DNA from: Flectonema sp. DT1601 | Lineage: Eukaryota | DNA length: 64,000 nucleotides | Reading direction: 5' to 3' | NCBI GenBank assembly: GCA_964019425.1 | Contig: OZ025784.1 | Span: forward strand, 1,674,001 to 1,738,000 | Shown here: in pieces, positions 16,725 to 64,000 of the stretch | How the letters are laid out: each line of letters begins with the position of its first letter | How positions within the stretch are numbered: the stretch's first letter is position 1 | Program-made: the position numbers and the translations under genes | Notes under the pieces: generated by a model | Databases searched by the model: none | What the model was told of the DNA's origin: nothing | What the model saw: only the letters and a program-made list of their open reading frames with translations

Positions 16725-16958
16725 TAAAGTCGTTGCCTTCTGGTGCGACAGTTTTTGTAATATAAATTATATTCAATCCGCAGACAACCTTTTACTGTAA
16801 TATACTCTCAATAGACTTTTGTACTTATTCATCGTATCCTTCCATGTTTAACACAGATACAACATGTGGAATCCAATGTAAGTATTTCTATTCTTTTTGA
16901 TAAAGTTGTTTTATATTTATTACCCAACCCAACCAGGTAATGTTTCTCTAGTCAGCAA

Positions 16959-35789: not shown

Positions 35790-36743
35790 ATGTTAATCAT
35801 TAAGGTCATCGTGTCGATTATTCTTATGATTGCCGTAGCGGTGATCCAATCCAAACCAGCACACTTCATTCATGAAGGATATGTTGGAGTTTACTGGAGA
35901 GGAGGAGCGCTCCTACCAGAGATTGCAGAAGCAGGAATTCGGTACATGATACCAGTTCTCGATACCATGGAACAGGTTCAAGTTAGTACTCAGACGGATT
36001 CAGTATCTCGTATTCCTTGCGGTACAAGTGGAGGAGTGATGGTAAACATAGAAAAGATTGAAGTAGTGAATCGCTTAAGAAAGAGTCACGTGTTGGCTAC
36101 TATCCGAAACTACGGAGTGCACTACGACAAGATTTGGATATTTGATAAAATCCATCATGAGATTAATCAGTTTTGCTCAAAGCACACCTTACACGAGGTT
36201 TACATCGAAAAATTTGATGCATTGGACGAAATGCTCGCCAGCAAGCTGCAGCAAGATTGCGATAAGTACGACATCGGTATTGATATTATTTCTATTAGAG
36301 TAACAAAGCCAACTGTTCCTCATTCAATTGCGAACACATTTGTCCAACTTGAGGAGTCAAAACAAAGTCTACTACTGAAGAGAGAACAACAGAATCTCAT
36401 TGAAGCGGAGTCTAAGATTGTTCTCCAGCGGGCAAGAGCTGAAGCTGAGAAACAAAAACAAGTAAGAAAGATTCAACTGGAAGTCGAGCTTTTGGAAGAG
36501 GAATCTAAAAAGTCTATTCAAGCAGTCAGGGATGCAATGAAGTCAAACAGCATGAAAGCGATGGCAGATGCTGAGGCTCACAGTATTCGGGTCATTGCTG
36601 AGGCTGAGAATAAGAGACTCTCGAAAGCAAAGCTCCAAGAGGTTCTCTACATGTCTATCTCAAACAATACGAAAATATTCTTCGGAGAGAGCATTCCAAA
36701 ATTTTGGGGAGGTCTCAACCAATTTATTGATGGAGAGAACTAA
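35790..36743 (+). CDS. ERLIN: Erlin (SPFH/band-7 ER protein)
   Basis: EGYVGVYWRGGALL, PCGTSGGVM, IFDKIHHEINQFCSKHTLHEVYI, RVTKP, NNTKIFFGESIP. Confidence 0.93.
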   Translation: MLIIKVIVSIILMIAVAVIQSKPAHFIHEGYVGVYWRGGALLPEIAEAGIRYMIPVLDTMEQVQVSTQTDSVSRIPCGTSGGVMVNIEKIEVVNRLRKSHVLATIRNYGVHYDKIWIFDKIHHEINQFCSKHTLHEVYIEKFDALDEMLASKLQQDCDKYDIGIDIISIRVTKPTVPHSIANTFVQLEESKQSLLLKREQQNLIEAESKIVLQRARAEAEKQKQVRKIQLEVELLEEESKKSIQAVRDAMKSNSMKAMADAEAHSIRVIAEAENKRLSKAKLQEVLYMSISNNTKIFFGESIPKFWGGLNQFIDGEN

Positions 36744-36970
36744 GTTTAGCATACACTTGAGTTAAACAAATAACCGAAACTTAACAATCGAAGTCGTAAT
36801 AATATCCTCACCACCACTAGCTCTCAGTTGATATTATGACGTCTTCCTGTCAGGTAAATCACAAATAAACCGTGTGTCATTTATCTTTAAGGATCTGAAA
36901 TAAATAAGAGAAAGTGTTCTGAGCTGAGAATTGATTTTGTAAGTGTGTCGGGAAATGTAGAGATTACCGA

Positions 36971-37414
36971 GCTCAAAGCACACCTTACACGAGGTTTACA
37001 TCGAAAAACTTGATGCATTGGACGAAATGCTCGCCAGCAAGCTGCAGCAAGATTGCGATAAGTACGACATCGGTATTGATATTATTTCTATTAGAGTAAC
37101 AAAGCCAACTGTTCCTCATTCAATTGCGAACACATTTGTCCAACAAAGTCTAATACTGAAGAGAGAACAACAGAATCTCATTGAAGCGGAGTCTAAGATT
37201 GTTCTCCAGCGGGCAAGAGCTGAAGCTGAGAAACAACAACAAGTAAGAAAGATTCAACTGGAAGTCCAGTTGATATTTCGACGTCTTCCTGTCAGGTAAA
37301 TCACAAATAAACCGTGTGTCATTTATCTTTAAGGATCTGAAATAAATAAGAGAAAGTGTTCTGAGCGGAAAATGAATTTTGTAAGTGTGTTGAAGAGGAA
37401 ATATAGAGATTACC
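36971..37414 (+). pseudogene. Internally deleted tandem duplicate of the erlin 3' half and downstream flank
   Basis: 36971-37266 copies erlin from 36175 with a 15-nt deletion (LEESK); 37267-37414 copies 36825-36968. Confidence 0.9.
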
Positions 37415-39993: not shown

Positions 39994-41082
39994 CTAGAGA
40001 TACCCCTTCCAGGCTCGCGTTGCTCGCACACAATTTTGTACCCTTTTCCTTGCTATTTTCTTCTTACTAATTTTTCTGGTTGAAAAACACAAAAAATGTG
40101 CCTGGGAATTGAACCCTTGCCACGGCTACCGAAGAGATTTAGGGTATCCACTCGGCTGTGCAGCCCTGGGATTTTCTTTTTTTTTTTTATTTATTTATTT
40201 GTGTGTTCTTAGCCTCTTTATGGAAATCCTTCCATTTTCCCCCCTCCAGTCTTAACGTAGGAGAGTCTACCAGGTGCCTACCCTGGACGCCCTTCGGGTG
40301 CGGGATTTGAACCAATTGCGTGTACGGACGCGATGGGTTATTGCAGTGGCAGGGGATCGAACCAGCGATCACCCAGCCCTAGGGCGAGAGTTATACCACT
40401 ACCCGGGATATCGCAATTTTTTATTATTATTACTTTTCTGCAATTTTTATTTATAAAAATTGCAGAAAAGTAGGCACGAAAACGACGGCTAGGTTTATGA
40501 TGGTTGGATATGTGGCTTAGGTTATCTGTTTGTTACATTTGGGAATATTTTATAAACCATTCACAACAGGTTTATCGAACCTGTATCTGCAATGTGTGCG
40601 ACCCTGGGATGGAAATACAGGAATTTAGTTATATTAATAAGGTTATCGTTCATTATTTCCAATAAAATAGAAATGTGAGAAGGACTATGGGATGGCGGAA
40701 CGCAAGCCCCCCCCCAACCCCCAAACTCGATTCCGTACTGCACTGAATGACAACACGGAAAAAGAGATGTGTATGCAGCTAAGTTAGAAACATTTATTGT
40801 AATGTAAAGTATTTACGTCAATCGCAGAGTGTATACCTACACTAACATTACCTTTAGTCACTGTATCTCAGAACTAATGTTAAATTATCGTTATGTTTAT
40901 GATACAAAACATTTGTATTTTACGTACAAACTCGAACAGTTAACCCCCCCAAGGGTGGGGAGCCACTAATAAAAGCCAACCTCCTGAAAAAGAATCAAGA
41001 AAAAACAAAAATGCCCTCACCCAGGGTCGAACTGGACGGTTTACAGCCATTTTGGGTTTTGTAATGAATGGTTAGTTCTGAA
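39994..41082 (-). mobile_element. Helitron-like element copy A (rearranged, 5'-truncated)
   Basis: Same CTAG end as the other copies; two internal deletions, a fold-back at 40431-40472 and an insert at about 40725-40940. Confidence 0.7.
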
Positions 41083-41083
41083 G

Positions 41084-41105: not shown

Positions 41106-42263
41106 CTAGAGATACCCCTTCCAGGCTCGCGTTGCTCGCACAATTTTAAGCTTTCTGAACAAACATTATTTTACAACCAAGTCACGTCTGTTTTTATTCC
41201 CTGGCTAGGTACCCGTCCAGGGTACAAATTTGAACTTAACTTTACGCTCGCTTCGCTCGCGTTAAGTTAAGTCCAATTTTGTACCCTTTTCCTTGCTACT
41301 TTCTTCTTACTAATTTTTCTGGTTGAAAAACACAAAAAATGTGCCTGGGAATTGAACCCTTGCCACGGCTACCGAAGAGATTTAAGGTATCCACTCGGCT
41401 GTGCAGCCCTGGGATTTTCTTTTTTTTTTTTATTTATTTATTTGTGTGTTCTTAGCCTCTTTATGGAAATCCTTCCATTTTCCCTTCCCTCCAGTCTTAA
41501 CGTAGGAGAGTCTACCAGGTGCCTACCCTGGACGCCCTTCGGGCGCGGGATTTGAACTAATTGCGTGTACGGGCGCGATGGGTTATTGCAGTGGCAGGGG
41601 ATCGAACCAGCGATCACCCAGCCCCAGGGCAAGGGTTATACCACTACCCCTGGGATATCGCAAGTTTTTATTATTATTACTTTTCTGCAATTTTTATTTA
41701 TAAATAAGTTTTCGAAAAGGTGGGAGCTTTTGGCTCCTGCCCTATTCCCGATGTAAACTTTCTTTTTTTTTTTTTTTTTTTTTTTAACAGGCCCAAAGGG
41801 CGACAATGAAAGATGCTGACCAAGGAATAATATTCAAATGAATTTTCGTTTCAAAGAAACGAACAGGATTAAGGGGGAGGCAGAAAAAAAATAATATGAA
41901 GAGGAAATAATCAAACATGAAAAGAAAAAATAAAATAAAAATAAATAAACGTTATATATAAGCAATTTCTTTTTTTTTTCGCAATTTTTTATTTATTTTT
42001 ACTTTTCTGTCCCAACGGGACGACAAATGAAAAATGTCCTCCCTTAGCTGAAAATGCACACTGCACCCTGTTTATCAAGTCCTTTGTTTTTGTTTTTCTG
42101 AAAGATATCTGTAGTTGTTGTTATATTAATGCTAGCACGAAAACGACGGCTAGGTTTATGATGATTGGATATGTGGCTTAGGTTATCTGTTTGTTACATT
42201 TGGAAGTATTTTACAACAGGTTTATCGAACCTGTATCTGCAATGTGTGCGACCCTGGGATGGA
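41106..42263 (-). mobile_element. Helitron-like element copy B (5'-truncated)
   Basis: Near-identical to 56236-57445; stops at ACCCTGGGATGGA, where unique coding sequence begins. Confidence 0.75.
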
Positions 42264-46414: not shown

Positions 46415-48724
46415 ATGTCCACCTCATCCAATGTTCAGCTGAACGAACAAGTTTTAAAATGGATATCTGAGACCAAAGAAGCGATTAATACGACTCAAGA
46501 AGAATTCGATAAAGTAGTCAACATTATTTTAAAGGAGGGAAAAGGCCTAACTGGCGATGAAGCTGCCTTCATAAAAAGATGCGTCGTCATGTCTGGAAGT
46601 CTCGCAGATCACAAGCAGAAGCTAACAACAGACTTAGAGGACCTGAAGGTAGAAGAGAAAAACTACAGGGAGGTGCTGAAGAAATCTTCTGAGGTATACC
46701 TTTTACTTTTTGTTTGTAACGCATTTCGGGGTAAACCTGTCTGATCGGGTCCAACCTTTTTTTGTATTGGTCACAGTACAGCCCTTCGGATTGATTATTG
46801 AAATTACTTGTTCACCAAAAGAAAAACAATCATCCACAGACGCCTGATGTTGTACCATACACAGTAGAGGAGGTAGAGAAGCTTTTGGACCCTTCAAAAA
46901 TGAAGATGGAGACTGTTGTTGCAAATAAGCCACTCCTTGATAGGGAAAATGCACGCAATGCACTTGATGTGGTGTTGCATCAAAAACGTATAAATGATAG
47001 GTGGCATGTCATCACAACTGTAGGAATTCCAGGCTCAGGGAAGACCTTCCTGCTACGTAAAGGGATTATGAATGAATGGTATCCTGATCGAAGTATTATG
47101 ATGACCTTTTATGAGCATGCACAGATTATCGATGATGGAAAGATGGATCCGCTTGTTGCCTTTGCTCGTCAGCTTGTCCAAACAAACAACTTCAGAGGAG
47201 ACGTTGATTTCAACCGCATTGTAGACTTCCATGGAGTGATCACAGCCTTTCGACAGAAGCTTGGCCTATCTGATGAGATCCCTTTGATTGTCTGTATTGA
47301 TGAACTTATTAAATTGCGTGAACATCACATTATGCTCTTGCGAAGGGAAGGTGTGGATGAGCAAAGGTTGAAACTCCAAGCCACAGATCGATGCAAAATG
47401 CTGAGAACTGCCCTGATGGCCTATCAGGACAGATGCACTAATAACAAGTTACCCGAGATACGATTTGTCTGGACGTCACACACCGAGGATAACGAAATGA
47501 CCGCGTCTGTAGGTAGTCGTCGTCAGATCGTTCACATACCATTAACAAACCTAACTCATGAAAATGCCCTGAATCTATTGAGACTTGACGAACTTAAAGG
47601 GGCAGGGGATCTGGTAACTGAGTGGTCATTGAATATGTGTGCTGGTAATCCCCGTGCGATTGTGAGTCTCCCCGGAGTGATTAATGACGCAAAGTGTTTT
47701 GGTACAGCTGGTCTTGCTTCACGCATAGCTAGTGGAATTTATAGAGCATGTATGTTTCAAACGCTTCACATTTCATTTGTTGAGGACCACCTCGCTGCAG
47801 TTCTCACAAAGTCACTCAACAGTGCCACAGAGGATGCATTAAGAATTAGGGGTGCTCTCCACAAACTCTCCAATGGTGTTGAATGCTTAATTCCAATTTG
47901 GTTTGGTTTGGGCATGGGCAAATGAAAAGCACACAAAGATGGTTGGGGAGTGGCTGGTTGGGGAGTGGTTGATTGAATATTTCGGCAGTGATGCAAACAT
48001 GAACCCCAAAACATTTGAAGAGACAACACTCTACTTTGAAGGGCTTCTGAACCATGCATACAGACAGCTGAAGAAAACACCATTTCTGAGTGAATATTTT
48101 GATGGGGCTGACCATATCCAGGAAAACATAAAAGAATTGATTGTTCACCCCAGGAAAGTGTTAAGAGCGGAAGAACCTTCATCCCTTAGCAGCTTGGGAT
48201 CTGAAGAGCTTTACAATAAGCTCCAATCTGGACAAGCTGTGTACTCGAAAAATGTTGTCGGAGAGGGTGGTGACATTCTGATCCCTTTGATGCTCTCTGA
48301 AGGAAAGAAAAAGGCAACGCTCTACCTATTCTGTGCCCAGTGCAAACTAGCAAAGAGAGTCGATAGCCTCCAAGAAGTAGAAACGAAGGCTGTGGAAATT
48401 CCAGCTGTCCAGGAACTCCAGGCTTGGGCGAATAAACAGAAGAAACCACTTGATGTACATGGTCTTTATTTCACCACACACACACCCAAGCTTCAAACTG
48501 CAAAGCGGAAGGGTGTTTGGTTCACAAAGGATTCTATGGAGAAGTGGCTGAGCAGACTTGGTTTGCCAAGAGTCAATTACCACCATGCAAGAACCTCAAC
48601 ATCTGGTAGCTCCGCATTACTCAGACACCGGGCGATGAGCTGGTCTACACAACAAAGACCCCATCTACCCACAGCTAGATGCAATGCCCCAAACCTTTTA
48701 CGGCGAATCTGTAGATTTTTGTAG
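46415..48724 (+). pseudogene. Crinkler/RHS-type effector-like gene: coiled-coil header exon, P-loop NTPase, PD-(D/E)xK nuclease; frameshifted
   Basis: Exon 46415-46693 with donor GTATAC; Walker A GIPGSGKT; Walker B LIVCIDE; CAGNPR; C-terminal GGDILIPL..AQCK. Frame breaks near 46780-46830 and at about 47900. Confidence 0.65.
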
Positions 48725-49459: not shown

Positions 49460-50059
49460 TTAGCCTCTGGGCAAGGCTCGCTTCGCTTGCGCAAAGTTAT
49501 TTATTTTTTCTGAATTAAGCTTGTTTTTCCTTTGCCTAAGCATGCAAAACTTAAAACGATGGCTAGGTAATAGTGAGTACGTCGCTTATTTCAAGTTGCC
49601 CATTTTTATCTTTCTGAACAACCTTATTTTACAACCAAGTGAGTTTTTATTCCCTGTCAGGCTTTTTGGCCTCATCCTTTCTGTTGTTCTATCTCTCAGT
49701 TAATTTTAGTTTTCTGTTTCATTCAGCTTTTTCTTAGCAAACGCAAACTGAACTTAAAAACAAATAATCTTCTGCCAAAGCTTTTTGCAGCAGACATTGA
49801 ATTTTATGTCTGCTTCTTCCCTCCTTCGTTCCTTCTCGGTTCCTCTTTCTCAGTATTTTAAGTAACCCATTTCTATTTTCTTGATGTGATACTTCTGCTT
49901 TGCCTTCCGCTAACTTTTGGGAGGGCTTCATCACCAACGCTTTCTTTTTTGAGCCTTTTGTCGTTGTTCTGTTAGTTTCTGTCCCACCCAGCTCTTAGGC
50001 AGCACCTTATAGTAGGCCCCAATTTCCTTGGAACCCAAAAAATCCCCAATACTGGTATT
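49460..50059 (-). mobile_element. Older diverged relative of the Helitron-like family (about 600 bp)
   Basis: Minus-strand end GCGCAAGCGAAGCGAGCC-11 nt-CTAA. Patches match the core (AAAACGATGGCTAGGT; TTTCTGAACA..TTTTACAACCAAGT). The right end matches 55883-55920. Confidence 0.5.
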
Positions 50060-50084
50060 AAACCCGCAAAACCTGCAAACCTGC
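50060..50084. repeat. Degenerate three-unit AAACCCGC array
   Basis: AAACCCGC AAAACCTGC AAACCTGC. Confidence 0.85.
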
Positions 50085-50085
50085 A

Positions 50086-51560
50086 CTAGAGATACCCTTC
50101 CAGGCTCGCACACAACTTTTTTTTTTAAAGCTTTCTGAGCAAACATCATTTTTACAACCAAGTCACGTCTGTTTTTATTCCCTGGCTAGGTACCCGTCCA
50201 GGGTACAAATTTGAACTTAACTTTACGCTCGCTTCGCTCGCGTTAAGTTAAGTCCAATGTACCCTTTTCCTTGCTAATTTTTCTGGTTGAAAAACACAAA
50301 AAATGTGCCTGGGAATTGAACCCTTGCCACGGCTACCGAAGAGATTTAAGGTATCCACTCGGCTGTGCAGCCCTGGGATTTTCTTTTTTTTTTATACTGT
50401 AAAGGGAAATTCTTGTGGGGAAAAACCCGCGAGTTTGAAAAAAAATCTCCAAATCCGCGAGAATATTTCCCTTTACAGTATTTATTTATTTGTGTGTTCT
50501 TAGCCTCTTTATGGAAATCCTTCCATTTTCCCTTCCCTCCAGTCTTAACATAGGAGAGTCTACCAGGTGCCTACCCTGGACGCCCTTCGGGCGCGGGATT
50601 TGAACTAATTGCGTGTACGGGCGCGATGGGTTATTGCAGTGGCAGGGGGTCGAACCAGCGATCACCCAGCCTTTTTTTTTTAACAGGCCCAAAGGGCGAC
50701 AATGAAAGATGCTGACCAAGGAATAATATTCAAATGAATTTTTGTTTCAAAGAAACAAACAGGATTAAGGGAGAGGCAGAAAAAAAAAAAAAAAATAATA
50801 TGAAGAGGAAATAATCAAACATGAAAAAAAAAGATAAAATAAAAATAAATAAACGTTATATATAAGCAATTTCTTTTTTTTTCCGCAATTTTCTATTTAT
50901 TTATTACTTTTCTGTCCCAACGGGACGACAAATGAAAAATGTCCTCCCTTAGCTGAAAATGCACACTGCACCCTGTTTTATCAAGTCCTTTGTTTTTGTT
51001 TTTCTGAAAGATATCTGTAGTTGTTGTTATATGCTAGCACGAAAACGACAGCTAGGTTTATGATGATTGGATATCTGTTTGTTACATTTGGAAGTATTTT
51101 ACAACAGGTTTATCGAACCTGTATCTGCAATGTGTGCGACCCTGGGATGGGAATATAGGAATTTAGTTATATTAATAAGGTTATCGTTCATTATTTCCAA
51201 TAAAATAGAAATGTGGGAAGAACTATGGGATGGCGGGACGCAGCCCCCCCCCCCAACCCCCCCCAAGGGGGGGGAGCCACTAATAAAGGCCAACCTCCTG
51301 AAAAAGAATCAAGAAAAAACAAAAATGCCCTCACCCAGGGTCGAACTGGTTTACAGCCATTTTGGGTTTTGTAAAGAATGGTTAGTTCTGAAACTATTTG
51401 TGTAGGAAAGACCCTTTACCCAAAAAGAAATGAAATCAAAGATTGCTTTTTCACAGCTTGGCACCTAAAATCCAAAACTCATTAAGAAGGAAAAAATTAT
51501 TTCAAAAAGAAAGTTTTTGCTAACTAAATTGGCAGCCATACACCTAAATTTCAAAACCAT
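50086..51560 (-). mobile_element. Helitron-like element copy C (5'-truncated, small deletions, contains a MITE)
   Basis: Colinear with 56236-57860. Confidence 0.75.
50397..50478. mobile_element. 82-bp MITE with TA target-site duplication (Tc1/mariner-pogo type)
   Basis: TA-CTGTAAAGGGAAAT...ATTTCCCTTTACAG-TA. Absent at the same position in other copies; copy E has a single TA there. Confidence 0.85.
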
Positions 51561-51783
51561 ACCCGCAAACCCGCAAACCCGCAAACCCGCAAACCCGCAA
51601 ACCCGCAAACCCGCAAACCCGCAAACCCGCAAACCCGCAAACCCGCAAACCCGCAAACCCGCAAACCCGCAAACCCGCAAACCCGCAAACCCGCAAACCC
51701 GCAAACCCGCAAACCCGCAAACCCGCAAACCCGCAAACCCGCAAACCCGCAAACCCGCAAACCCGCAAACCCGCAAACCCGCA
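51561..51783. repeat. (AAACCCGC)n, about 28 units
   Basis: Direct reading. Confidence 0.97.
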
Positions 51784-52964
51784 CTAGAGATACCCCTTCC
51801 AGGCTCGCGTTGCTCGCACAATTTTTTTTTTAAGCTTTCTGAACAAACATTATTTTTACAACCAAGTCACGTCTGTTTTTATTCCCTGGCTAGGTACCCG
51901 TCCAGGGTACAAATTTGAACTTAACTTTACGCTCGCTTTGCTCGCGTTAAGTTAAGTCCAATTTTGTACCCTTTTCCTTGCTACTTTCTTCTTACTAATT
52001 TTTCTGGTTGAAAAACACAAAAAATGTGCCTGGGAATTGAACCCTTGCCACGGCTACCGAAGAGATTTAAGGTATCCACTCGGCTGTGCAGCCCTGGGAT
52101 TTTCTTTTTTTTTTTTATTTATTTATTTGTGTGTTCTTAGCCTCTTTATGGAAATCCTTCCATTTTCCCTTCCCTCCAGTCTTAACGTAGGAGAGTCTAC
52201 CAGGTGCCTACCCTGGATGCCCTTCGGGCGCGGGATTTGAACTAATTGCGTGTACGGGCGCGATGGGTTATTGCAGTGGCAGGGGGTCGAACCAGCGATC
52301 ACCCAGCCCCAGGGCGAGGGTTATACCACTACCCTGGGATATCGCAACTTTTTATTATTATTACTTTTCTGCAATTTTTATTTATAAATAAGTTTTCGAA
52401 AAGGTGAGAAGTAACGGGCTGGGAGCTTTTGGCTCCTGCCCTATTCCCGATGTAAACTTTCTTTTCTTTTTTTTTTTTTTTTTAAACAGGCCCAAGGGGC
52501 GACAATGACTGTTGCTGACCAAGGAATAATATTCAAATGAATTTTCGTTTCAAAGAAACGAACAGGATTAAGGGAGAGGCAGAAAAAAAAAAAAAAAATA
52601 ATATGAAGAGGAAATAATCAAACATGAAAAAAAAAAATAAAATAAAAATAAATAAACGTTATATATAAGCAATTTCTTTTTTTTTTTGCAATTTTTTATT
52701 TATTTATTACTTTTCTGTCCCAACAGGACGACAAATGAAAAATGTCCTCCCTTAGCTGAAAATGCACACTGCACCCTGTTTTATCAAGTCCTTTGTTTTT
52801 GTTTTTCTGAAAGATATCTGTAGTTGTTGTTATATTAATATGCTAGCACGAAAACGACGGCTAGGTTTATGATGATTGGATATGTGGCTTAGGTTATCTG
52901 TTTGTTACATTTGGAAGTATTTTACAACAGGTTTATCGAACCTGTATCTGCAATGTGTGCGACC

Positions 52965-54747
52965 GAAATAAGCAGCTAAGGTTTGCTTGCGGGAAGAGAA
53001 TCAGCAGCTAAAATTTGCTTGCGGGAAGAGAATCAGCAGCTAAAATTTGCTTGCGGGAAGAAAATAAGCAGCTAAAATTTGCTTGCGGGAAGAAAATAAG
53101 CAGCTAAAATTTGCTTGCGGGAAGAAAATAAGCAGCTAAGGTTTGCTTGCGGGAAGAGAATCAGCAGCTAAAATTTGCTTGCGGGAAGAGAATCAGCAGC
53201 TAAAATTTGCTTGCGGGAAGAAAATAAGCAGCCAAAATTTGCTTGCGGGAAGAAAATAAGCAGCTAAAATTTGCTTGCGGGAAGAAAATAAGCAGCCAAA
53301 ATTTGCTTGCGGGAAGAAAATAAGCAGCTAAAATTTGCTTGCGGGAAGAAAATAAGCAGCTAAGGTTTGCTTGCGGGAAGAGAATCAGCAGCTAAAATTT
53401 GCTTGCGGGAAGAAAATAAGCAGCTAAAATTTGCTTGCGGGAAGAAAATAAGCAGCCAAAATTTGCTTGCGGGAAGAAAATAAGCAGCTAAGATTTGCTT
53501 GCGGGAAGAGAATCAGCAGCTAAAATTTGCTTGCGGGAAGAAAATAAGCAGCTAAAATTTGCTTGCGGGAAGAAAATAAGCAGCTAAAATTTGCTTGCGG
53601 GAAGAAAATAAGCAGCTAAAATTTGCTTGCGGGAAGAAAATAAGCAGCTAAGATTTGCTTGCGGGAAGAGAATCAGCAGCTAAAATTTGCTTGCGGGAAG
53701 AAAATAAGCAGCTAAGGTTTGCTTGCGGGAAGAGAATCAGCAGCTAAAATTTGCTTGCGGGAAGAAAATAAGCAGCTAAGATTTGCTTGCGGGAAGAGAA
53801 TCAGCAGCTAAAATTTGCTTGCGGGAAGAGAATCAGCAGCTAAAATTTGCTTGCGGGAAGAGAATCAGCAGCTAAAATTTGCTTGCGGGAAGAAAATAAG
53901 CAGCTAAAATTTGCTTGCGGGAAGAAAATAAGCAGCTAAAATTTGCTTGCGGGAAGAAAATAAGCAGCTAAGGTTTGCTTGCGGGAAGAGAATCAGCAGC
54001 TAAAATTTGCTTGCGGGAAGAGAATCAGCAGCTAAAATTTGCTTGCGGGAAGAAAATAAGCAGCCAAAATTTGCTTGCGGGAAGAAAATAAGCAGCTAAA
54101 ATTTGCTTGCGGGAAGAAAATAAGCAGCTAAGGTTTGCTTGCGGGAAGAGAATCAGCAGCTAAAATTTGCTTGCGGGAAGAAAATAAGCAGCTAAAATTT
54201 GCTTGCGGGAAGAAAATAAGCAGCCAAAATTTGCTTGCGGGAAGAAAATAAGCAGCTAAAATTTGCTTGCGGGAAGAAAATAAGCAGCTAAGATTTGCTT
54301 GCGGGAAGAGAATCAGCAGCTAAAATTTGCTTGCGGGAAGAAAATAAGCAGCTAAAATTTGCTTGCGGGAAGAAAATAAGCAGCTAAAATTTGCTTGCGG
54401 GAAGAAAATAAGCAGCTAAAATTTGCTTGCGGGAAGAAAATAAGCAGCTAAGATTTGCTTGCGGGAAGAAAATAAGCAGCTAAAATTTGCTTGCGGGAAG
54501 AAAATAAGCAGCTAAAATTTGCTTGCGGGAAGAAAATAAGCAGCCAAAATTTGCTTGCGGGAAGAGAATCAGCAGCTAAAATTTGCTTGCGGGAAGAAAA
54601 TAAGCAGCTAAAATTTGCTTGCGGGAAGAAAATAAGCAGCTAAAATTTGCTTGCGGGAAGAAAATAAGCAGCCAAAATTTGCTTGCGGGAAGAGAATCAG
54701 CAGCTAAAATTTGCTTGCGGGAAGAAAATTAGCAGCCAAAATTTGCT
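52965..54747. repeat. 32-bp minisatellite, about 55 units (AAAATAAGCAGCTAAAATTTGCTTGCGGGAAG and variants)
   Basis: Direct reading; recurring variants AGAATC/AAAATA and CTAAAA/CCAAAA/CTAAGG/CTAAGA. Confidence 0.97.
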
Positions 54748-55084
54748 CTGGGGTGCTACATAAGCATTGATTGCAGAAAGGTGGCAAAAATGAAAGGAAT
54801 TATTTATTAAAACCCAAATTGTCTAAACCATAACAGAAAGAAAGCTTGGCACCAAAACCCTAAAACCTATTCTCCTCAGGGATTTGTGAAGCCTTTTCGG
54901 GATCGATAGGCCAAGGGATAACCATAAAAAAGGTGTAACCATGATTTCTTGGAGGTGAGTGGCACAAAAAGCAGTAAAAAAAAAAAAAAAAAATCCCGTG
55001 ACAAAGGCAAATAACTGCAAAAGCAGCAATTCTCTTTCCGCAAACGCCCCCCCGTTTAACATGCCACACTCTACCTTTCTTCCC

Positions 55085-55468
55085 GTAATGCGTGACACCA
55101 TTCAACACTTACGTAGCACTTAGCACCAGGCCTGCCAGCAGGAAGAAACAGAAGCCTCATTCTCAGTACGGAAGTAGCTAGGCCTGGCCAGCTTACATAG
55201 CACTTCTGAGCAACCTAATATTATTCCTGCAATGCGTGACACTATTACGTAGCACTTGGCACCAGGCCTGCCAGCAGGAAGAAACAGAAGCCTCATTCCC
55301 AGTACGGAAGTGGCTAGGCCTGGCCAGCTTACATAGCACTTCTGGGTGACCTAATATTATTCCTGTAATGCGTGACACTATTACGTAGCACTTAGCATCA
55401 GGCCTGCTAGCAGGAAGAAACAGAAGCCTCATTCCCAGTACGGAAGTAGCTAGGCCTGGCCAGCTTAC
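55085..55468. repeat. About three tandem units of roughly 136 bp
   Basis: Recurring AATGCGTGACAC..CAGGAAGAAACAGAAGCCTCATT..AGGCCTGGCCAGCTTACA; flanked by a diverged duplication (54880-55130 versus 55525-55800). Confidence 0.88.
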
Positions 55469-55931
55469 AGTGCTGTGTAAGTTTTGACTGGCAAACAACT
55501 GCAAAACTTTTTTCTCCACCCAGAAATTTGTGAAGACTTTTCGGGGCCGATAGATCGAGAGATAACCATAAAAAAAGATGTACTCATGATTTTTTGGAGG
55601 TGAGTGGCGCAAAGTGGTAAAAAAAAAAAAAAAAATTCCGTGACAAAGGCAAATAACAGCAATTTTCTTTCTGCAAACGCCCGCCGTGGATCATCAGACT
55701 GTCATTTGGTAGCGCCGACTTGCCACAGGTCAATATGCAACGCTACTTTTCTTTCCGTAATGCGTGGCACCAGTCAACACTTATGTTGCACTTAGAACCA
55801 GACCTTCTTGCTGGAATGCAAAGAAGAATTAGTGTGTAATTAGGTGAGGCCTGGCCTGGGTACCTGGCCCAGGACTTGGTGGATTTCCTCAGAACCCAAA
55901 ATATCCCCAATGCTGACAATTATATAGGAGA

Positions 55932-56235
55932 AACCCGCAAACCCGCAAACCCGCAAACCCGCAAACCCGCAAACCCGCAAACCCGCAAACCCGCAAACCC
56001 GCAAACCCGCAAACCCGCAAACCCGCAAACCCGCAAACCCGCAAACCCGCAAACCCGCAAACCCGCAAACCCGCAAACCCGCAAACCCGCAAACCCGCAA
56101 ACCCGCAAACCCGCAAACCCGCAAACCCGCAAACCCGCAAACCCGCAAACCCGCAAACCCGCAAACCCGCAAACCCGCAAACCCGCAAACCCGCAAACCC
56201 GCAAACCCGCAAACCCGCAAACCCGCAAACCCGCA
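55932..56235. repeat. (AAACCCGC)n, about 38 units
   Basis: Direct reading. Confidence 0.97.
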
Positions 56236-58372
56236 CTAGAGATACCCCTTCCAGGCTCGCGTTGCTCGCACACAACTTTTTTTTTTTAAGCTTTCTGAAC
56301 AAACATTATTTTTACAACCAAGTCACGTCTGTTTTTATTCCCTGGCTAGGTACCCGTCCAGGGTACAAATTTGAACTTAACTTTACGCTCGCTTCGCTCG
56401 CGTTAAGTTAAGTCCAATTTTGTACCCTTTTCCTTGCTACTTTCTTCTTACTAATTTTTCTGGTTGAAAGACACAAAAAATGTGCCTGGGAATTGAACCC
56501 TTGCCACGGCTACCGAAGAGATTTAAGGTATCCACTCGGCTGTGCAGCCCTGGGGTTTTCTTTTTTTTTTATATTTATTTATTTGTGTGTTCTTAGCCTC
56601 TTTATGGAAATCCTTCCATTTTCCCTTCCCTCCAGTCTTAACGTAGGAGAGTCTACCAGGTGCCTACCCTGGACGCCCTTCGGGCGCGGGATTTGAACTA
56701 ATTGCGTGTACGGGCGCGATGGGTTATTGCAGTGGCAGGGGGTCGAACCAGCGATCACCCAGCCCCAGGGCGAGGGTTATACCACTACCCCTGGGATATC
56801 GCAACTTTTTATTATTTATTTATTATTTATTACTTTTCTGCAATTTTTATTTATAAATAAGTTTTCGAAAAGGTGGGAAGTAACGGACTGGGAGCTTTTG
56901 GCTCCTGCCCTATTCCCGATGTAAACTTTCTTTTTTTTTTTTTTTTTTTCTTTTTTAACAGGCCCAAAGGGCGACAATGAAAGATGCTGACCAAGGAATA
57001 GTATTCAAATGAATTTTTGTTTCAAAGAAACAAACAGGATTAAGGGAGAGGCAGAAAAAAAAAAAAAAAATAATATGAAGAGGAAATAATCAAACATGAA
57101 AAGAAAAGATAAAATAAAAATAAATAAACGTTATATATAAGCAATTTCTTTTTTTTTTCGCAATTTTTTATTTATTTATTACTTTTCTGTCCCAACGGGA
57201 CGACAAATGAAAAATGTCCTCCCTTAGCTGAAAATGCACACTGCACCCTGTTTTATCAAGTCCTTTGTTTTTGTTTTTCTGAAAGATATCTGTAGTTGTT
57301 GTTATATTAATATGCTAGCACGAAAACGACAGCTAGGTTTATGATGATTGCATATGTGGCTTAGGTTATCTGTTTGTTACATTTGGAAGTATTTTACAAC
57401 AGGTTTATCGAACCTGTATCTGCAATGTGTGCGACCCTGGGATGGGAATATAGGAATTTAGTTATATTAATAAGGTTATCGTTCATTATTTCCAATAAAA
57501 TAGAAATGTGGGAAGAACTATGGGATGGCGGAACGCAGCCCCCCCCCCAACCCCCCCCAAGGGGGGGGAGCCACTAATAAAGGCCAACCCCCTGAAAAAG
57601 AATCAAGAAAGAACAAAAATGCCCTCACCCAGGGTCGAACTGGACGGTTTACAGCCATTTTGGGTTTTGTAAAGAATGGTTAGTTCTGAAACTATTTGTG
57701 TAGGAAAGACCCTTTACCCAAAAAGAAATGAAATCAAAGATTGCTTTTTCACAGCTTGGCACCTAAAATCCAAAACTCATTAAGAAGGAAAAAATTATTT
57801 CAAAAAGAAAATTTTTGCTAACTAAATTGGCAGCCATACACCTAAATTTCAAAACCATACCACTTACTAACAAAATTTCTTTCTCATCACTTTTTATATT
57901 TTAAGAAAATGGTTAACAGGAATTTATGAAGACTTTTGGATAGATCAACTATGTGTTCCCATCTTTTTTAGGAGATCTGTAGAAAAGAATAAATCTTTCA
58001 GAAAATATTATAAAGGGAAGATTTCTTCTGAAGAATTTTTTTTTAACTACCTACTAAATTGGCAACCATACACTTAAATTTCAAAACCATACTAAAAAAG
58101 AATTTTCATCACATTTTATACTTTAAGAAAATAAATGGTTACCCATCTTTTTTAGACCTGCTCGGGCACAAAAATCCAGCATTTTTCCTTAGGCAAATAA
58201 ATCTTACTTACTTCCTACTGAAGAAAATTGGCAGCTAAAATTTGTTTGCGGGAAGAAAATAAGCAGCTAAAATTTGCTTGCGGGAAGGGAATCAGCAGCT
58301 AAAATTTGCTTGCGGGAAGAAAATAAGCAGCTAAAATTTGCTTGCGGGAAGAGAATCAGCAGCCAAGATTTG
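56236..58372 (-). mobile_element. Helitron-like element copy E (longest core, truncated inside the 32-bp satellite)
   Basis: Same CTAG end; about 2 kb core, then 4-5 satellite units (about 58221-58372), then octamer. Confidence 0.75.
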
Positions 58373-58615
58373 CCCGCAAACCCGCAAACCCGCAAACCCG
58401 CAAACCCGCAAACCCGCAAACCCGCAAACCCGCAAACCCGCAAACCCGCAAACCCGCAAACCCGCAAACCCGCAAACCCGCAAACCCGCAAACCCGCAAA
58501 CCCGCAAACCCGCAAACCCGCAAACCCGCAAACCCGCAAACCCGCAAACCCGCAAACCCGCAAACCCGCAAACCCGCAAACCCGCAAACCCGCAAACCCG
58601 CAAACCCGCAAACCC
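58373..58615. repeat. (AAACCCGC)n, about 30 units
   Basis: Direct reading. Confidence 0.97.
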
Positions 58616-59073
58616 AAAGAGCTTAAGTTGATACTCTTTTCAATGTCACTATAGTCCATTTTGATAACGTTTTCCACAACAGATCTGGAAAATAGTAATT
58701 CGCGATTGCAGGTGTCGTTGAGAATCATATCCTTCGTACGGACTTTCATCTTAAGAGCACAGGTCTTTGAGACCGACAGGGCCATGTCGTTGTCAGAACA
58801 CCATTGATCCACTTTATCAAGTATTATTTGAGCACTTGAAAGAGCTTCTTCCATGTTATGTCCAGATACTACACATGCTGTATCATCCGCATACAGAGCA
58901 GACGTCGTTGTTTCTTTCTCCAGTTCCAAAATCTTGCAGAGGTCATCAACGTAGATAAGATAGAGAAGAGGACCCAGGATCGATCCCTGTGGAACCCCCT
59001 TAGCCAGAGTACGGAATTCGCTAAAGTAACCATTCGCTTCAACTCTAACCTTCCTGTTTGTAAGAAAGTCTTG
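58616..59073 (-). mobile_element. Internal fragment of a non-LTR retrotransposon reverse transcriptase
   Basis: Open frame: FLTNRKVRV..GVPQGSILGPLLYLIYVDDL..LYADDT..WCSDNDMALSVSKT; LINE RT motifs (APE-type clades such as ingi/I/Jockey). Confidence 0.92.
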
Positions 59074-62000
59074 CCCGCAAACCCGCAAACCCGCAAACCC
59101 GCAAACCCGCAAACCCGCAAACCCGCAAACCCGCAAACCCGCAAACCCGCAAACCCGCAAACCCGCAAACCCGCAAACCCGCAAACCCGCAAACCCGCAA
59201 ACCCGCAAACCCGCAAACCCGCAAACCCGCAAACCCGCAAACCCGCAAACCCGCAAACCCGCAAACCCGCAAACCCGCAAACCCGCAAACCCGCAAACCC
59301 GCAAACCCGCAAACCCGCAAACCCGCAAACCCGCAAACCCGCAAACCCGCAAACCCGCAAACCCGCAAACCCGCAAACCCGCAAACCCGCAAACCCGCAA
59401 ACCCGCAAACCCGCAAACCCGCAAACCCGCAAACCCGCAAACCCGCAAACCCGCAAACCCGCAAACCCGCAAACCCGCAAACCCGCAAACCCGCAAACCC
59501 GCAAACCCGCAAACCCGCAAACCCGCAAACCCGCAAACCCGCAAACCCGCAAACCCGCAAACCCGCAAACCCGCAAACCCGCAAACCCGCAAACCCGCAA
59601 ACCCGCAAACCCGCAAACCCGCAAACCCGCAAACCCGCAAACCCGCAAACCCGCAAACCCGCAAACCCGCAAACCCGCAAACCCGCAAACCCGCAAACCC
59701 GCAAACCCGCAAACCCGCAAACCCGCAAACCCGCAAACCCGCAAACCCGCAAACCCGCAAACCCGCAAACCCGCAAACCCGCAAACCCGCAAACCCGCAA
59801 ACCCGCAAACCCGCAAACCCGCAAACCCGCAAACCCGCAAACCCGCAAACCCGCAAACCCGCAAACCCGCAAACCCGCAAACCCGCAAACCCGCAAACCC
59901 GCAAACCCGCAAACCCGCAAACCCGCAAACCCGCAAACCCGCAAACCCGCAAACCCGCAAACCCGCAAACCCGCAAACCCGCAAACCCGCAAACCCGCAA
60001 ACCCGCAAACCCGCAAACCCGCAAACCCGCAAACCCGCAAACCCGCAAACCCGCAAACCCGCAAACCCGCAAACCCGCAAACCCGCAAACCCGCAAACCC
60101 GCAAACCCGCAAACCCGCAAACCCGCAAACCCGCAAACCCGCAAACCCGCAAACCCGCAAACCCGCAAACCCGCAAACCCGCAAACCCGCAAACCCGCAA
60201 ACCCGCAAACCCGCAAACCCGCAAACCCGCAAACCCGCAAACCCGCAAACCCGCAAACCCGCAAACCCGCAAACCCGCAAACCCGCAAACCCGCAAACCC
60301 GCAAACCCGCAAACCCGCAAACCCGCAAACCCGCAAACCCGCAAACCCGCAAACCCGCAAACCCGCAAACCCGCAAACCCGCAAACCCGCAAACCCGCAA
60401 ACCCGCAAACCCGCAAACCCGCAAACCCGCAAACCCGCAAACCCGCAAACCCGCAAACCCGCAAACCCGCAAACCCGCAAACCCGCAAACCCGCAAACCC
60501 GCAAACCCGCAAACCCGCAAACCCGCAAACCCGCAAACCCGCAAACCCGCAAACCCGCAAACCCGCAAACCCGCAAACCCGCAAACCCGCAAACCCGCAA
60601 ACCCGCAAACCCGCAAACCCGCAAACCCGCAAACCCGCAAACCCGCAAACCCGCAAACCCGCAAACCCGCAAACCCGCAAACCCGCAAACCCGCAAACCC
60701 GCAAACCCGCAAACCCGCAAACCCGCAAACCCGCAAACCCGCAAACCCGCAAACCCGCAAACCCGCAAACCCGCAAACCCGCAAACCCGCAAACCCGCAA
60801 ACCCGCAAACCCGCAAACCCGCAAACCCGCAAACCCGCAAACCCGCAAACCCGCAAACCCGCAAACCCGCAAACCCGCAAACCCGCAAACCCGCAAACCC
60901 GCAAACCCGCAAACCCGCAAACCCGCAAACCCGCAAACCCGCAAACCCGCAAACCCGCAAACCCGCAAACCCGCAAACCCGCAAACCCGCAAACCCGCAA
61001 ACCCGCAAACCCGCAAACCCGCAAACCCGCAAACCCGCAAACCCGCAAACCCGCAAACCCGCAAACCCGCAAACCCGCAAACCCGCAAACCCGCAAACCC
61101 GCAAACCCGCAAACCCGCAAACCCGCAAACCCGCAAACCCGCAAACCCGCAAACCCGCAAACCCGCAAACCCGCAAACCCGCAAACCCGCAAACCCGCAA
61201 ACCCGCAAACCCGCAAACCCGCAAACCCGCAAACCCGCAAACCCGCAAACCCGCAAACCCGCAAACCCGCAAACCCGCAAACCCGCAAACCCGCAAACCC
61301 GCAAACCCGCAAACCCGCAAACCCGCAAACCCGCAAACCCGCAAACCCGCAAACCCGCAAACCCGCAAACCCGCAAACCCGCAAACCCGCAAACCCGCAA
61401 ACCCGCAAACCCGCAAACCCGCAAACCCGCAAACCCGCAAACCCGCAAACCCGCAAACCCGCAAACCCGCAAACCCGCAAACCCGCAAACCCGCAAACCC
61501 GCAAACCCGCAAACCCGCAAACCCGCAAACCCGCAAACCCGCAAACCCGCAAACCCGCAAACCCGCAAACCCGCAAACCCGCAAACCCGCAAACCCGCAA
61601 ACCCGCAAACCCGCAAACCCGCAAACCCGCAAACCCGCAAACCCGCAAACCCGCAAACCCGCAAACCCGCAAACCCGCAAACCCGCAAACCCGCAAACCC
61701 GCAAACCCGCAAACCCGCAAACCCGCAAACCCGCAAACCCGCAAACCCGCAAACCCGCAAACCCGCAAACCCGCAAACCCGCAAACCCGCAAACCCGCAA
61801 ACCCGCAAACCCGCAAACCCGCAAACCCGCAAACCCGCAAACCCGCAAACCCGCAAACCCGCAAACCCGCAAACCCGCAAACCCGCAAACCCGCAAACCC
61901 GCAAACCCGCAAACCCGCAAACCCGCAAACCCGCAAACCCGCAAACCCGCAAACCCGCAAACCCGCAAACCCGCAAACCCGCAAACCCGCAAACCCGCAA

Positions 62001-64000
62001 ACCCGCAAACCCGCAAACCCGCAAACCCGCAAACCCGCAAACCCGCAAACCCGCAAACCCGCAAACCCGCAAACCCGCAAACCCGCAAACCCGCAAACCC
62101 GCAAACCCGCAAACCCGCAAACCCGCAAACCCGCAAACCCGCAAACCCGCAAACCCGCAAACCCGCAAACCCGCAAACCCGCAAACCCGCAAACCCGCAA
62201 ACCCGCAAACCCGCAAACCCGCAAACCCGCAAACCCGCAAACCCGCAAACCCGCAAACCCGCAAACCCGCAAACCCGCAAACCCGCAAACCCGCAAACCC
62301 GCAAACCCGCAAACCCGCAAACCCGCAAACCCGCAAACCCGCAAACCCGCAAACCCGCAAACCCGCAAACCCGCAAACCCGCAAACCCGCAAACCCGCAA
62401 ACCCGCAAACCCGCAAACCCGCAAACCCGCAAACCCGCAAACCCGCAAACCCGCAAACCCGCAAACCCGCAAACCCGCAAACCCGCAAACCCGCAAACCC
62501 GCAAACCCGCAAACCCGCAAACCCGCAAACCCGCAAACCCGCAAACCCGCAAACCCGCAAACCCGCAAACCCGCAAACCCGCAAACCCGCAAACCCGCAA
62601 ACCCGCAAACCCGCAAACCCGCAAACCCGCAAACCCGCAAACCCGCAAACCCGCAAACCCGCAAACCCGCAAACCCGCAAACCCGCAAACCCGCAAACCC
62701 GCAAACCCGCAAACCCGCAAACCCGCAAACCCGCAAACCCGCAAACCCGCAAACCCGCAAACCCGCAAACCCGCAAACCCGCAAACCCGCAAACCCGCAA
62801 ACCCGCAAACCCGCAAACCCGCAAACCCGCAAACCCGCAAACCCGCAAACCCGCAAACCCGCAAACCCGCAAACCCGCAAACCCGCAAACCCGCAAACCC
62901 GCAAACCCGCAAACCCGCAAACCCGCAAACCCGCAAACCCGCAAACCCGCAAACCCGCAAACCCGCAAACCCGCAAACCCGCAAACCCGCAAACCCGCAA
63001 ACCCGCAAACCCGCAAACCCGCAAACCCGCAAACCCGCAAACCCGCAAACCCGCAAACCCGCAAACCCGCAAACCCGCAAACCCGCAAACCCGCAAACCC
63101 GCAAACCCGCAAACCCGCAAACCCGCAAACCCGCAAACCCGCAAACCCGCAAACCCGCAAACCCGCAAACCCGCAAACCCGCAAACCCGCAAACCCGCAA
63201 ACCCGCAAACCCGCAAACCCGCAAACCCGCAAACCCGCAAACCCGCAAACCCGCAAACCCGCAAACCCGCAAACCCGCAAACCCGCAAACCCGCAAACCC
63301 GCAAACCCGCAAACCCGCAAACCCGCAAACCCGCAAACCCGCAAACCCGCAAACCCGCAAACCCGCAAACCCGCAAACCCGCAAACCCGCAAACCCGCAA
63401 ACCCGCAAACCCGCAAACCCGCAAACCCGCAAACCCGCAAACCCGCAAACCCGCAAACCCGCAAACCCGCAAACCCGCAAACCCGCAAACCCGCAAACCC
63501 GCAAACCCGCAAACCCGCAAACCCGCAAACCCGCAAACCCGCAAACCCGCAAACCCGCAAACCCGCAAACCCGCAAACCCGCAAACCCGCAAACCCGCAA
63601 ACCCGCAAACCCGCAAACCCGCAAACCCGCAAACCCGCAAACCCGCAAACCCGCAAACCCGCAAACCCGCAAACCCGCAAACCCGCAAACCCGCAAACCC
63701 GCAAACCCGCAAACCCGCAAACCCGCAAACCCGCAAACCCGCAAACCCGCAAACCCGCAAACCCGCAAACCCGCAAACCCGCAAACCCGCAAACCCGCAA
63801 ACCCGCAAACCCGCAAACCCGCAAACCCGCAAACCCGCAAACCCGCAAACCCGCAAACCCGCAAACCCGCAAACCCGCAAACCCGCAAACCCGCAAACCC
63901 GCAAACCCGCAAACCCGCAAACCCGCAAACCCGCAAACCCGCAAACCCGCAAACCCGCAAACCCGCAAACCCGCAAACCCGCAAACCCGCAAACCCGCAA
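59074..64000. repeat. Long telomere-like array (AAACCCGC)n, about 615 units, running off the window end
   Basis: No variant unit seen; three open minus-strand frames (RVCGFAGL)n confirm uninterrupted periodicity. Confidence 0.98.

What the first reader, a model, noticed from the sequence alone, without database searches (positions are those of the whole stretch)
51784..55931. A Helitron-like element inserted precisely into a telomere-like octamer array at TT^T
Seen: the minus strand reads (TTTGCGGG)n-TT[TCTCCTATATAATTG...GCGAGC-AAC-GCGAGC-CTGGAAGGGGTATCT-CTAG]TGCGGG-(TTTGCGGG)n. Excising the bracket restores a perfect octamer with no base gained or lost, and there is no TSD or TIR. Known: Helitrons have 5'-TC, a subterminal hairpin shortly before 3'-CTRR and no TSD; as I recall, the bat Helitron Helraiser starts TCCTATATAAT. 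They normally insert at A^T. Inference: a non-autonomous rolling-circle element specialised on a simple telomere-like repeat, the niche usually held by site-specific non-LTR retrotransposons such as SART/TRAS. I do not know of a described Helitron doing this.
Basis: partly seen in the sequence, partly recalled or inferred. Interest (0 to 1): 0.9.

Follow-up and report, generated by a model that had tools for sequence, protein, structure and literature searches.

The report
Helitron-like element homing to octamer arrays
In a marine single-celled eukaryote that is likely a diplonemid, a 4.1-kb gene-less element with the end signatures of a rolling-circle jumping gene (Helitron) sits exactly inside a telomere-like 8-letter repeat, and four broken copies end at the same letter of that repeat, so it likely targets this repeat, a habit so far published for Paramecium but there on the opposite DNA strand.

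Summary
The 4,148-bp element (55931→51784, minus strand) starts TC and ends CTAG. Removing it restores a perfect (TTTGCGGG)n array. The window holds five right ends, all in one orientation and all joined as CTAG|TG, but only one intact left end. The host is diplonemid-like.

Best reading: a non-autonomous Helitron-type element whose transposase, supplied in trans and not seen here, joins it to the G-rich strand at TT^TG.

The concept is not new. Paramecium Helitrons inserted in telomeric repeats are published (PMC13085455). This element differs by canonical TC/CTAG ends, use of the G-rich strand and a different lineage.

Limits:
- No RepHel partner could be sought, because no genome is held.
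- The terminal hairpin is not significant by standard folding.
- A fixed 5′ boundary rests on one copy.
- 'Telomere' is unproven. The ≥4.9-kb array at the window's right edge has the wrong polarity for a right-hand chromosome end, although arrays get longer and purer towards it.

The parts
51784..55931 (-). Copy B: complete-ended non-autonomous Helitron-like element, 5′-TC…CTAG-3′, 4,148 bp; lacks about 780 bp that copy A has between the 32-bp satellite and the common 3′ part
55883..55931 (-). Left terminal sequence (LTS), TCTCCTATATAAT…; the only intact one in the window
55109..55469 (.). Internal 136-bp tandem repeat, 2.7 copies
52966..54747 (.). Internal 32-bp satellite, 55.7 copies; 55 copies of TTTGCTTGCGGG on the + strand, i.e. 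a target-like 7-mer in the orientation opposite to the flanking arrays
51904..51972 (-). Strong 69-nt hairpin (z −6.86) capped by GCGAGC-NNN-GCGAGC, ending 120 nt before the right end; deleted in copy E
51784..51817 (-). Right terminal sequence (RTS): GCGAGC-AAC-GCGAGC (pairs only via tandem G·A; ends 19 nt before the end) then …TATCTCTAG
55932..56235 (-). Perfect (TTTGCGGG)n array, 304 bp; starts TGCGGG after copy A, ends …GGGTT before copy B
51561..51783 (-). Perfect array, 223 bp, starts TGCGGG after copy B
56236..58372 (-). Copy A: 5′-truncated inside the 32-bp satellite, abutting an array; intact RTS
50086..51560 (-). Copy C: 5′-truncated, abutting an array with GGT microhomology; internal deletion, MITE insertion, damaged RTS hairpin; ends CTAG|TGCAGG
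50059..50085 (-). Degenerate array, 27 bp
49460..50056 (-). Relic F: older relative with an LTS-like block (50054–50022, 29 of 33 nt), an RTS-like block and a GCGAAGC-type hairpin ending CTAA, not followed by an array
41106..42262 (-). Copy D: 5′-truncated against gene-like DNA; ends CTAG|TGCGGG plus a 22-bp array (41105–41084)
39994..41083 (-). Copy E: 5′-truncated, abutting the 22-bp array; more diverged and rearranged; ends CTAG|TGCGGG plus a ~35-bp array (39993–39959)
58373..58615 (-). Perfect array, 243 bp
58616..59073 (-). Internal fragment (aa 546–696 of 1,253) of an APE-RT non-LTR retrotransposon, cut at both ends, between two arrays
59074..64000 (-). Perfect array of at least 4,927 bp (615 whole units, 0 variants), running off the window; + strand is (CCCGCAAA)n

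Best explanation
The element is likely a non-autonomous Helitron-type rolling-circle transposon whose transposase, presumed to be supplied in trans, would join it to the G-rich strand of (TTTGCGGG)n arrays at one fixed position, TT^TG.

Shown: TC…CTAG ends, exact excision, no TSD or TIR, no coding capacity, one orientation and one 3′ junction phase in 5 of 5 copies.

Inferred from Helraiser biochemistry (PMC4778049, PMC5876387): a RepHel nicks at the 5′ TC, peels one strand, pauses at the subterminal structure, cuts after CTAG, circularises, and strand-transfers into a target so that CTAG is joined to a T. The octamer has no A on its G-rich strand and offers TT, which is one of Helraiser's minor target dinucleotides.

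Why it lands in these arrays is inferred. The likeliest route is recruitment to a strand that is often single-stranded or bound by repeat-binding proteins. Later deletions or breaks removed the left ends of copies A, C, D and E.
For: - Excision is exact, and the TC/CTAG register is one of only 2 solutions among 49 tested; chance about 1e-4 to 2e-3.
- Five right ends all read CTAG|TG in one orientation. Beyond their arrays the downstream sequences differ, and the copies carry private indels and substitutions (A–D 1.1–2.2% apart), so unique flanks were not co-duplicated.
- The 3′ CTAG|T junction is the canonical Helitron junction, and TT is among Helraiser's alternative targets: 46 of 1,751 insertions were non-AT (passages).
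- Helitron-like ORFs are reported in Diplonema papillatum (passage).
- The Paramecium precedent shows the same anatomy: ORF-less, satellite-filled, flanked by repeats, one orientation.
Against: - Only one intact left end, so the TT phase at the 5′ junction is a single event (1 in 8 by chance).
- The five right-end junctions may not be independent insertions: a carried 3′ tail would give the same phase.
- No RepHel in the window, and none could be sought.
- The terminal hairpin is not significant under standard DNA energies (z −0.60 and −0.42).
- The target is T^T, not the defining A^T.
- Relic F ends CTAA|C with no array after it.
- No outside copy covering either terminus was found.
Confidence: 0.68

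Rival explanations
1. A Helitron without repeat targeting. One ancestral copy landed in an array; since then the transposase reads through CTAG, terminates inside the array and carries a variable octamer tail. This would build head-to-tail stacks and seed short arrays at internal sites.
For: It explains the invariant CTAG|TG phase by descent, and the short arrays (22 and ~35 bp) after copies D and E among genes. B's upstream array is also A's downstream array. Read-through at the RTS is shown for Helraiser.
Against: It still needs a cut at TT^TG to give B's 5′ junction. The arrays are 0-mismatch while the copies differ by 1–2%, which suggests independent upkeep. Arrays also flank a LINE fragment with no Helitron end.
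Confidence: 0.16
2. The arrays are added by telomerase to free 3′ ends of the element strand (and of the LINE fragment), and the capped pieces are then end-joined into a chain.
For: Unlike in Paramecium, the repeats 3′ of the right end are the G-rich strand, so telomerase addition is not excluded by polarity (argument, reversed here). Three arrays end GGG followed by C, CAA or CAAA, which could be fold-back additions at a free G-strand end. The LINE fragment is cut at both ends.
Against: Addition to a primer ending in G would be expected (inference) to continue C, G or TTT, not the single T seen in 5 of 5. The exact in-phase TT at B's left end would be chance. Telomerase use of this motif is not shown.
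Confidence: 0.09
3. Not a Helitron: either a SINE-like retroposon with an octamer tail, mobilised by the APE-RT LINE family, or a block spread by subtelomeric segmental duplication.
For: A fixed 3′ end with variable 5′ truncation is typical of target-primed reverse transcription. A high-copy LINE family exists (P0126, 101 members), and one fragment lies in the same array stack in the same orientation.
Against: TC and CTAG lie exactly at the array-defined borders. There is no poly(A) and no TSD, and no tRNA or Rfam head. The size (over 4 kb) and internal satellites fit poorly, and the flanks differ beyond the arrays.
Confidence: 0.07

Closest known systems
Telomere-capping Helitrons of Paramecium aurelia (PMC13085455; abstract, passages, sections 14, 15 and part 1 of 2 of section 18 read)
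   Same: Inserted inside simple telomeric-type repeats with repeats on both sides; absolute orientation bias; ORF-less, satellite-filled derivatives; many truncated copies; internal blocks of repeat of one polarity.
   Different: There the element strand is the C-rich strand and ends CCAA, and the transposases form their own clade. Here the element strand is the G-rich strand, the ends are canonical TC/CTAG, the repeat is an octamer, the host is a diplonemid, and neither transposase nor chromosome-end position is shown.
Canonical Helitrons (HLE1), e.g. Helraiser (PMC4778049, PMC5876387; passages read)
   Same: 5′-TC, CTAG-3′ joined to a T, no TSD, no TIR.
   Different: Target T^T in a GC-rich repeat rather than A^T in AT-rich DNA; no Watson-Crick palindrome about 11 nt from the end.
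Helitron2 / Helentron and their non-autonomous forms (definition as given in PMC13085455 section 18)
   Same: T^T target; internal satellites.
   Different: No significant asymmetric terminal inverted repeats; termini are of the canonical TC/CTAG type.
Telomere-specific non-LTR retrotransposons SART/TRAS (recalled; TRAS1 paper seen only as a search listing)
   Same: Niche: a fixed site in a simple telomere-type repeat, one orientation.
   Different: RNA intermediate, poly(A) tail, RT and endonuclease; none seen in this element.
Subtelomeric Helitron accumulations in Drosophila biarmipes (PMC6581046) and Hydractinia (PMC11934779); passages read
   Same: Helitron-derived DNA piled up in repeat-rich regions.
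   Different: Fragments in random orientation (D. biarmipes) or tandem arrays (Hydractinia); no sequence-specific insertion into a simple repeat was described in the passages read.

Membership tests
Canonical Helitron (HLE1) | 5′-TC terminus | tested here: met
   one copy only
Canonical Helitron (HLE1) | CTRR-3′ terminus followed by T | tested here: met
   5 of 5 right ends are CTAG|T
Canonical Helitron (HLE1) | [quoted passage not shown] | tested here: inconclusive
   z −0.60 and −0.42 by ViennaRNA DNA energies; a 6-bp stem is possible only with tandem G·A pairs, ending 19 nt from the end; a strong hairpin lies 120 nt upstream
Canonical Helitron (HLE1) | No TSD, no TIR | tested here: met
Canonical Helitron (HLE1) | Insertion at A^T | tested here: not met
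   Site is T^T; a minor Helraiser target
Canonical Helitron (HLE1) | RepHel (HUH + PIF1) partner with the same termini | not testable with these tools
   No genome held; no RepHel domain among 17 window ORFs scanned
Helitron2/Helentron (HLE2) | Insertion at T^T or T^C | tested here: met
Helitron2/Helentron (HLE2) | Asymmetric terminal inverted repeats | tested here: not met
   Best inverted match 14 of 17 nt, reached by 20 of 300 shuffles and not terminal
Paramecium telomere-capping Helitrons | Flanked on both sides by the simple repeat, single orientation | tested here: met
   B on both sides; 5 of 5 right ends; all on the minus strand
Paramecium telomere-capping Helitrons | Inserted in the C-rich strand; ends CCAA | tested here: not met
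   G-rich strand, CTAG
Paramecium telomere-capping Helitrons | Confined to chromosome ends; transposase in the Paramecium clade | not testable with these tools
   Position of the window in its 1,369,261-bp contig is unknown; no transposase
Telomeric repeat | Long, homogeneous, short G/T-rich unit | tested here: met
   At least 4,927 bp with 0 variants
Telomeric repeat | G-rich strand runs 5′→3′ towards a chromosome end | tested here: inconclusive
   The G-rich strand runs leftwards, towards 40 kb of genes; whether the contig ends right of 64000 is unknown
SINE / TPRT product | tRNA/7SL/5S-derived head, A-rich tail or TSD | tested here: not met
   0 tRNAs; no Rfam family at gathering score; no poly(A) tail or TSD

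The most novel reading that the evidence does not exclude
The stack is the right end of a diplonemid chromosome whose terminal array has reversed polarity: the strand running to the 3′ end is (CCCGCAAA)n. The Helitron would then keep the Paramecium geometry (left end outward, inserted into the strand whose 5′ end is terminal). The left-truncated copies A, C and E would be successive eroded ends healed by new array, and arrays would lengthen and purify outward, as seen. That would be a telomere breaking the G-strand rule, co-built by a rolling-circle transposon.
Probability: 0.08. Interest if true: 0.92.

Novelty: new variant of a known kind. Interest (0 to 1): 0.55.

Why it matters
If confirmed, rolling-circle transposons have taken the 'safe harbour in a simple telomere-type repeat' niche in a second published lineage, far from ciliates. 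They would have done so with canonical TC/CTAG ends and on the opposite strand. That contrast makes a clean test of what sets Helitron target choice: base sequence, strand availability or repeat-binding proteins. A sequence-specific HUH transposase would also be of tool interest. Separately, the octamer may be an unreported telomere motif in Euglenozoa, and its polarity in this window needs explaining either way.

Tried and rejected
- No whole genome is held, so genome-wide end mapping and a RepHel search were impossible.
- Metagenome scan for the RTS–array junction: 7 loci, all lone 18-mer matches, none similar to the element.
- Viral contigs: 0 hits for four octamer units, for a degenerate Rep motif and for the RTS.
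- Prokaryote genomes: 26 loci with 4–10 units, none similar to the element.
- Sequencing runs: 3 listed, shares 0.09–0.26, no RNA holder listed. Their contigs cover scattered internal pieces at low depth and neither terminus, which proves nothing. A 38-nt pure-octamer contig has depth 2,625–7,313 there, but the tool warns that depth is no copy number and the organisms are not shown to be this one.
- tRNA-like boxes seen by eye in the 3′ part were not supported.
- Helitron2-type sub-terminal inverted repeats are not significant.
- An internal two-unit copy of the target in the left end, noted for a dinoflagellate family in an earlier AI finding, is absent: best 10 of 16, and 150 of 264 background tiles score 10 or more.
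- No TTAGGG or TTTAGGG dimer in the window.
- No paper giving this octamer as a telomere, or any diplonemid telomere motif, was found (listings of 3–20 papers each). Two diplonemid genome notes had no 'telomer' passage in the text held, although the search index counted 2 for one of them. The main supplement of PMC10161547 and that of PMC4778049 could not be read and may bear on the telomere motif and on the Helraiser start.
- The P-loop ORF at 46795 remains unassigned.

Full report
OBSERVATION. On the minus strand a 304-bp perfect (TTTGCGGG)n array ends …GGGTT. It is followed by TCTCCTATATAAT at 55931; the sequence runs 4,148 bp to …TATCTCTAG at 51784 and continues TGCGGG into a 223-bp perfect array. 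Joining the flanks gives an unbroken array. Only 2 of 49 boundary pairs tested do so. They are the same event shifted by one T, and only one reads TC…CTAG. From k-mer frequencies in the first 39.9 kb, the chance of TC plus CTRR at such borders is about 2e-3, and with CTAG about 1e-4. There is no TSD and no TIR. The element has no ATG ORF above 92 aa. It holds a 136-bp repeat, a 1.8-kb 32-bp satellite and a strong hairpin ending 120 nt before the right end (z −6.86). The terminal motif GCGAGC-AAC-GCGAGC is not a Watson-Crick hairpin (z −0.60). It could form a 6-pair stem with two G·A pairs. That such tandem pairs are stable in DNA is recalled knowledge, not tested here. The same motif caps the large hairpin and recurs in relic F.

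THE STACK. The window has five right ends (56236, 51784, 50086, 41106, 39994), all on the minus strand and all joined CTAG|TG to an array. Only copy B has an intact left end. A, C and E start at different internal points directly after an array; D starts against gene-like DNA. B itself lacks about 780 bp present in A. A–D differ by 1.1–2.2% substitutions. E scores 4.8–5.7% in that alignment, but a misaligned block inflates this; BLAST blocks give 10 mismatches in 430 nt and 11 in 249 nt. An older relative F follows the degenerate array at 50059–50085. It has an LTS-like block and ends CTAA|C with no array, which counts against strict targeting or marks a different family. Between two further arrays lies an internal piece (aa 546–696 of 1,253, 97% identical) of an endonuclease-RT LINE whose cluster has 101 members. 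The last array is at least 4,927 bp with no variant and runs off the window.

HOST. Genes at 1–48.7 kb are long intron-poor ORFs, and all the long ones lie on the + strand. The nearest named relatives of the alcohol dehydrogenase are from Lacrimia lanifica and Diplonema ambulator (83% for the top clusters), so the host is likely a diplonemid. This rests on one gene. The contig is 1,369,261 bp; the window's place in it is unknown. Diplonema papillatum is reported to have Helitron-like ORFs and gene clusters separated by repeat regions (PMC10161547, passages).

IS IT A TELOMERE? The unit is short, G/T-rich, perfectly homogeneous over kilobases, and no TTAGGG dimer occurs in the window. Arrays lengthen and purify to the right (about 35, 22, 27 degenerate, 223, 304, 243, ≥4,927 bp), and the most diverged copies lie to the left. 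That is how a right-hand chromosome end would look. But the + strand there is (CCCGCAAA)n, and the G-rich strand runs left towards the genes, the wrong polarity for a right end under the usual rule (established knowledge). So the array is either interstitial (a fusion site or an internal block), a non-telomeric satellite, or a reversed telomere. I could not decide between these. I found no diplonemid telomere motif in print; one supplement that may hold it was unreadable.

MECHANISM. Shown: termini, exact junctions, one orientation, one 3′ phase, no coding capacity. Inferred from Helraiser (PMC4778049 and PMC5876387, passages): nick at the 5′ TC, displacement of one strand, termination after CTAG, a circle, and strand transfer that joins CTAG to a T. 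Helraiser used non-AT sites in 46 of 1,751 insertions, TT among the commonest. The G-rich octamer strand has no A, so T^T is the nearest available site. Three N^T sites exist per unit, and the same one is used in 5 of 5 right ends. Those five need not be independent, which is the main rival: read-through that carries an octamer tail. Telomerase capping is a second rival. It was excluded in Paramecium by strand polarity but is not excluded here. It does not readily explain the single T after CTAG or B's in-phase TT. A SINE or plain duplication fits worst.

COMPARISON. Paramecium germline chromosome ends consist of Helitrons inserted in C4A2 repeats, with a strict orientation, satellites inside, and many ORF-less copies (PMC13085455; abstract, passages, sections 14, 15 and part 1 of 2 of section 18). 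This element works like those but is not a member: it lies in the G-rich strand and ends CTAG, not CCAA. It has HLE1-type termini but fails the A^T target and has only an inconclusive hairpin. It has the HLE2 target but no sub-terminal inverted repeats (20 of 300 shuffles as good). I therefore call it Helitron-like and leave the class open until a transposase is found. Two unchecked earlier AI notes report similar stacks in a dinoflagellate. They lower the surprise but are not evidence. The internal target copy one of them describes is absent here.

VERDICT. A real and precise feature. It is likely a repeat-targeting non-autonomous Helitron (0.68) and a new variant of a kind first described in Paramecium. 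Interest 0.55, raised by the strand contrast and the unexplained array polarity, and capped by the published precedent and the missing transposase.

Noticed in passing
window 59074-64000: Perfect octamer array of at least 4.9 kb with the C/A-rich strand on + at the window's right edge: wrong polarity for a right-hand telomere although the surroundings look subtelomeric. Possibly an unreported telomere motif or an interstitial block.
   Followed up: partly
window 58616-59073 (-): Doubly truncated internal piece of a high-copy APE-RT LINE (P0126, 101 members; relatives P0130 and P0135 also carry RNase H) held between two arrays; not a normal 5′-truncated insertion.
   Followed up: partly
window 59074, 58373, 41084 (array 3′ ends on the minus strand): Three arrays ending GGG are followed by CAA, CAAA or C, the reverse complement of the preceding TTTG. 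This could be fold-back synthesis at a free G-strand end; the CAAA at 58372 is also native satellite sequence.
   Followed up: no
window 50397-50478: 82-bp MITE with 14-bp terminal inverted repeats and a TA duplication, inserted in copy C.
   Followed up: no
window 52966-54747: The internal 32-bp satellite carries TTGCGGG 55 times on the strand opposite to the flanking arrays; it might bind the same protein as the arrays.
   Followed up: partly
window 46795-48724 (+): Two overlapping frames (376 and 277 aa) that look like one frameshifted gene with a P-loop; only weak AAA/NACHT hits (E 0.06-0.14). It recalls retrotransposon-hot-spot/Crinkler-type genes (recalled, untested).
   Followed up: no
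window 36175-37414: Partial tandem duplication of the Band 7 gene's 3′ part and its downstream sequence (314 bp at 94%, 148 bp at 92%).
   Followed up: no
window 16941-20996 (+): 1,351-aa cysteine-rich protein with a signal-peptide-like start and ~38-aa repeats (114-bp DNA period); only a weak EGF-like hit.
   Followed up: no
run X1, record 2: A 585-nt contig begins with the C-rich octamer and continues into unique DNA unrelated to the RTS and in another phase: an array junction without this element.
   Followed up: no
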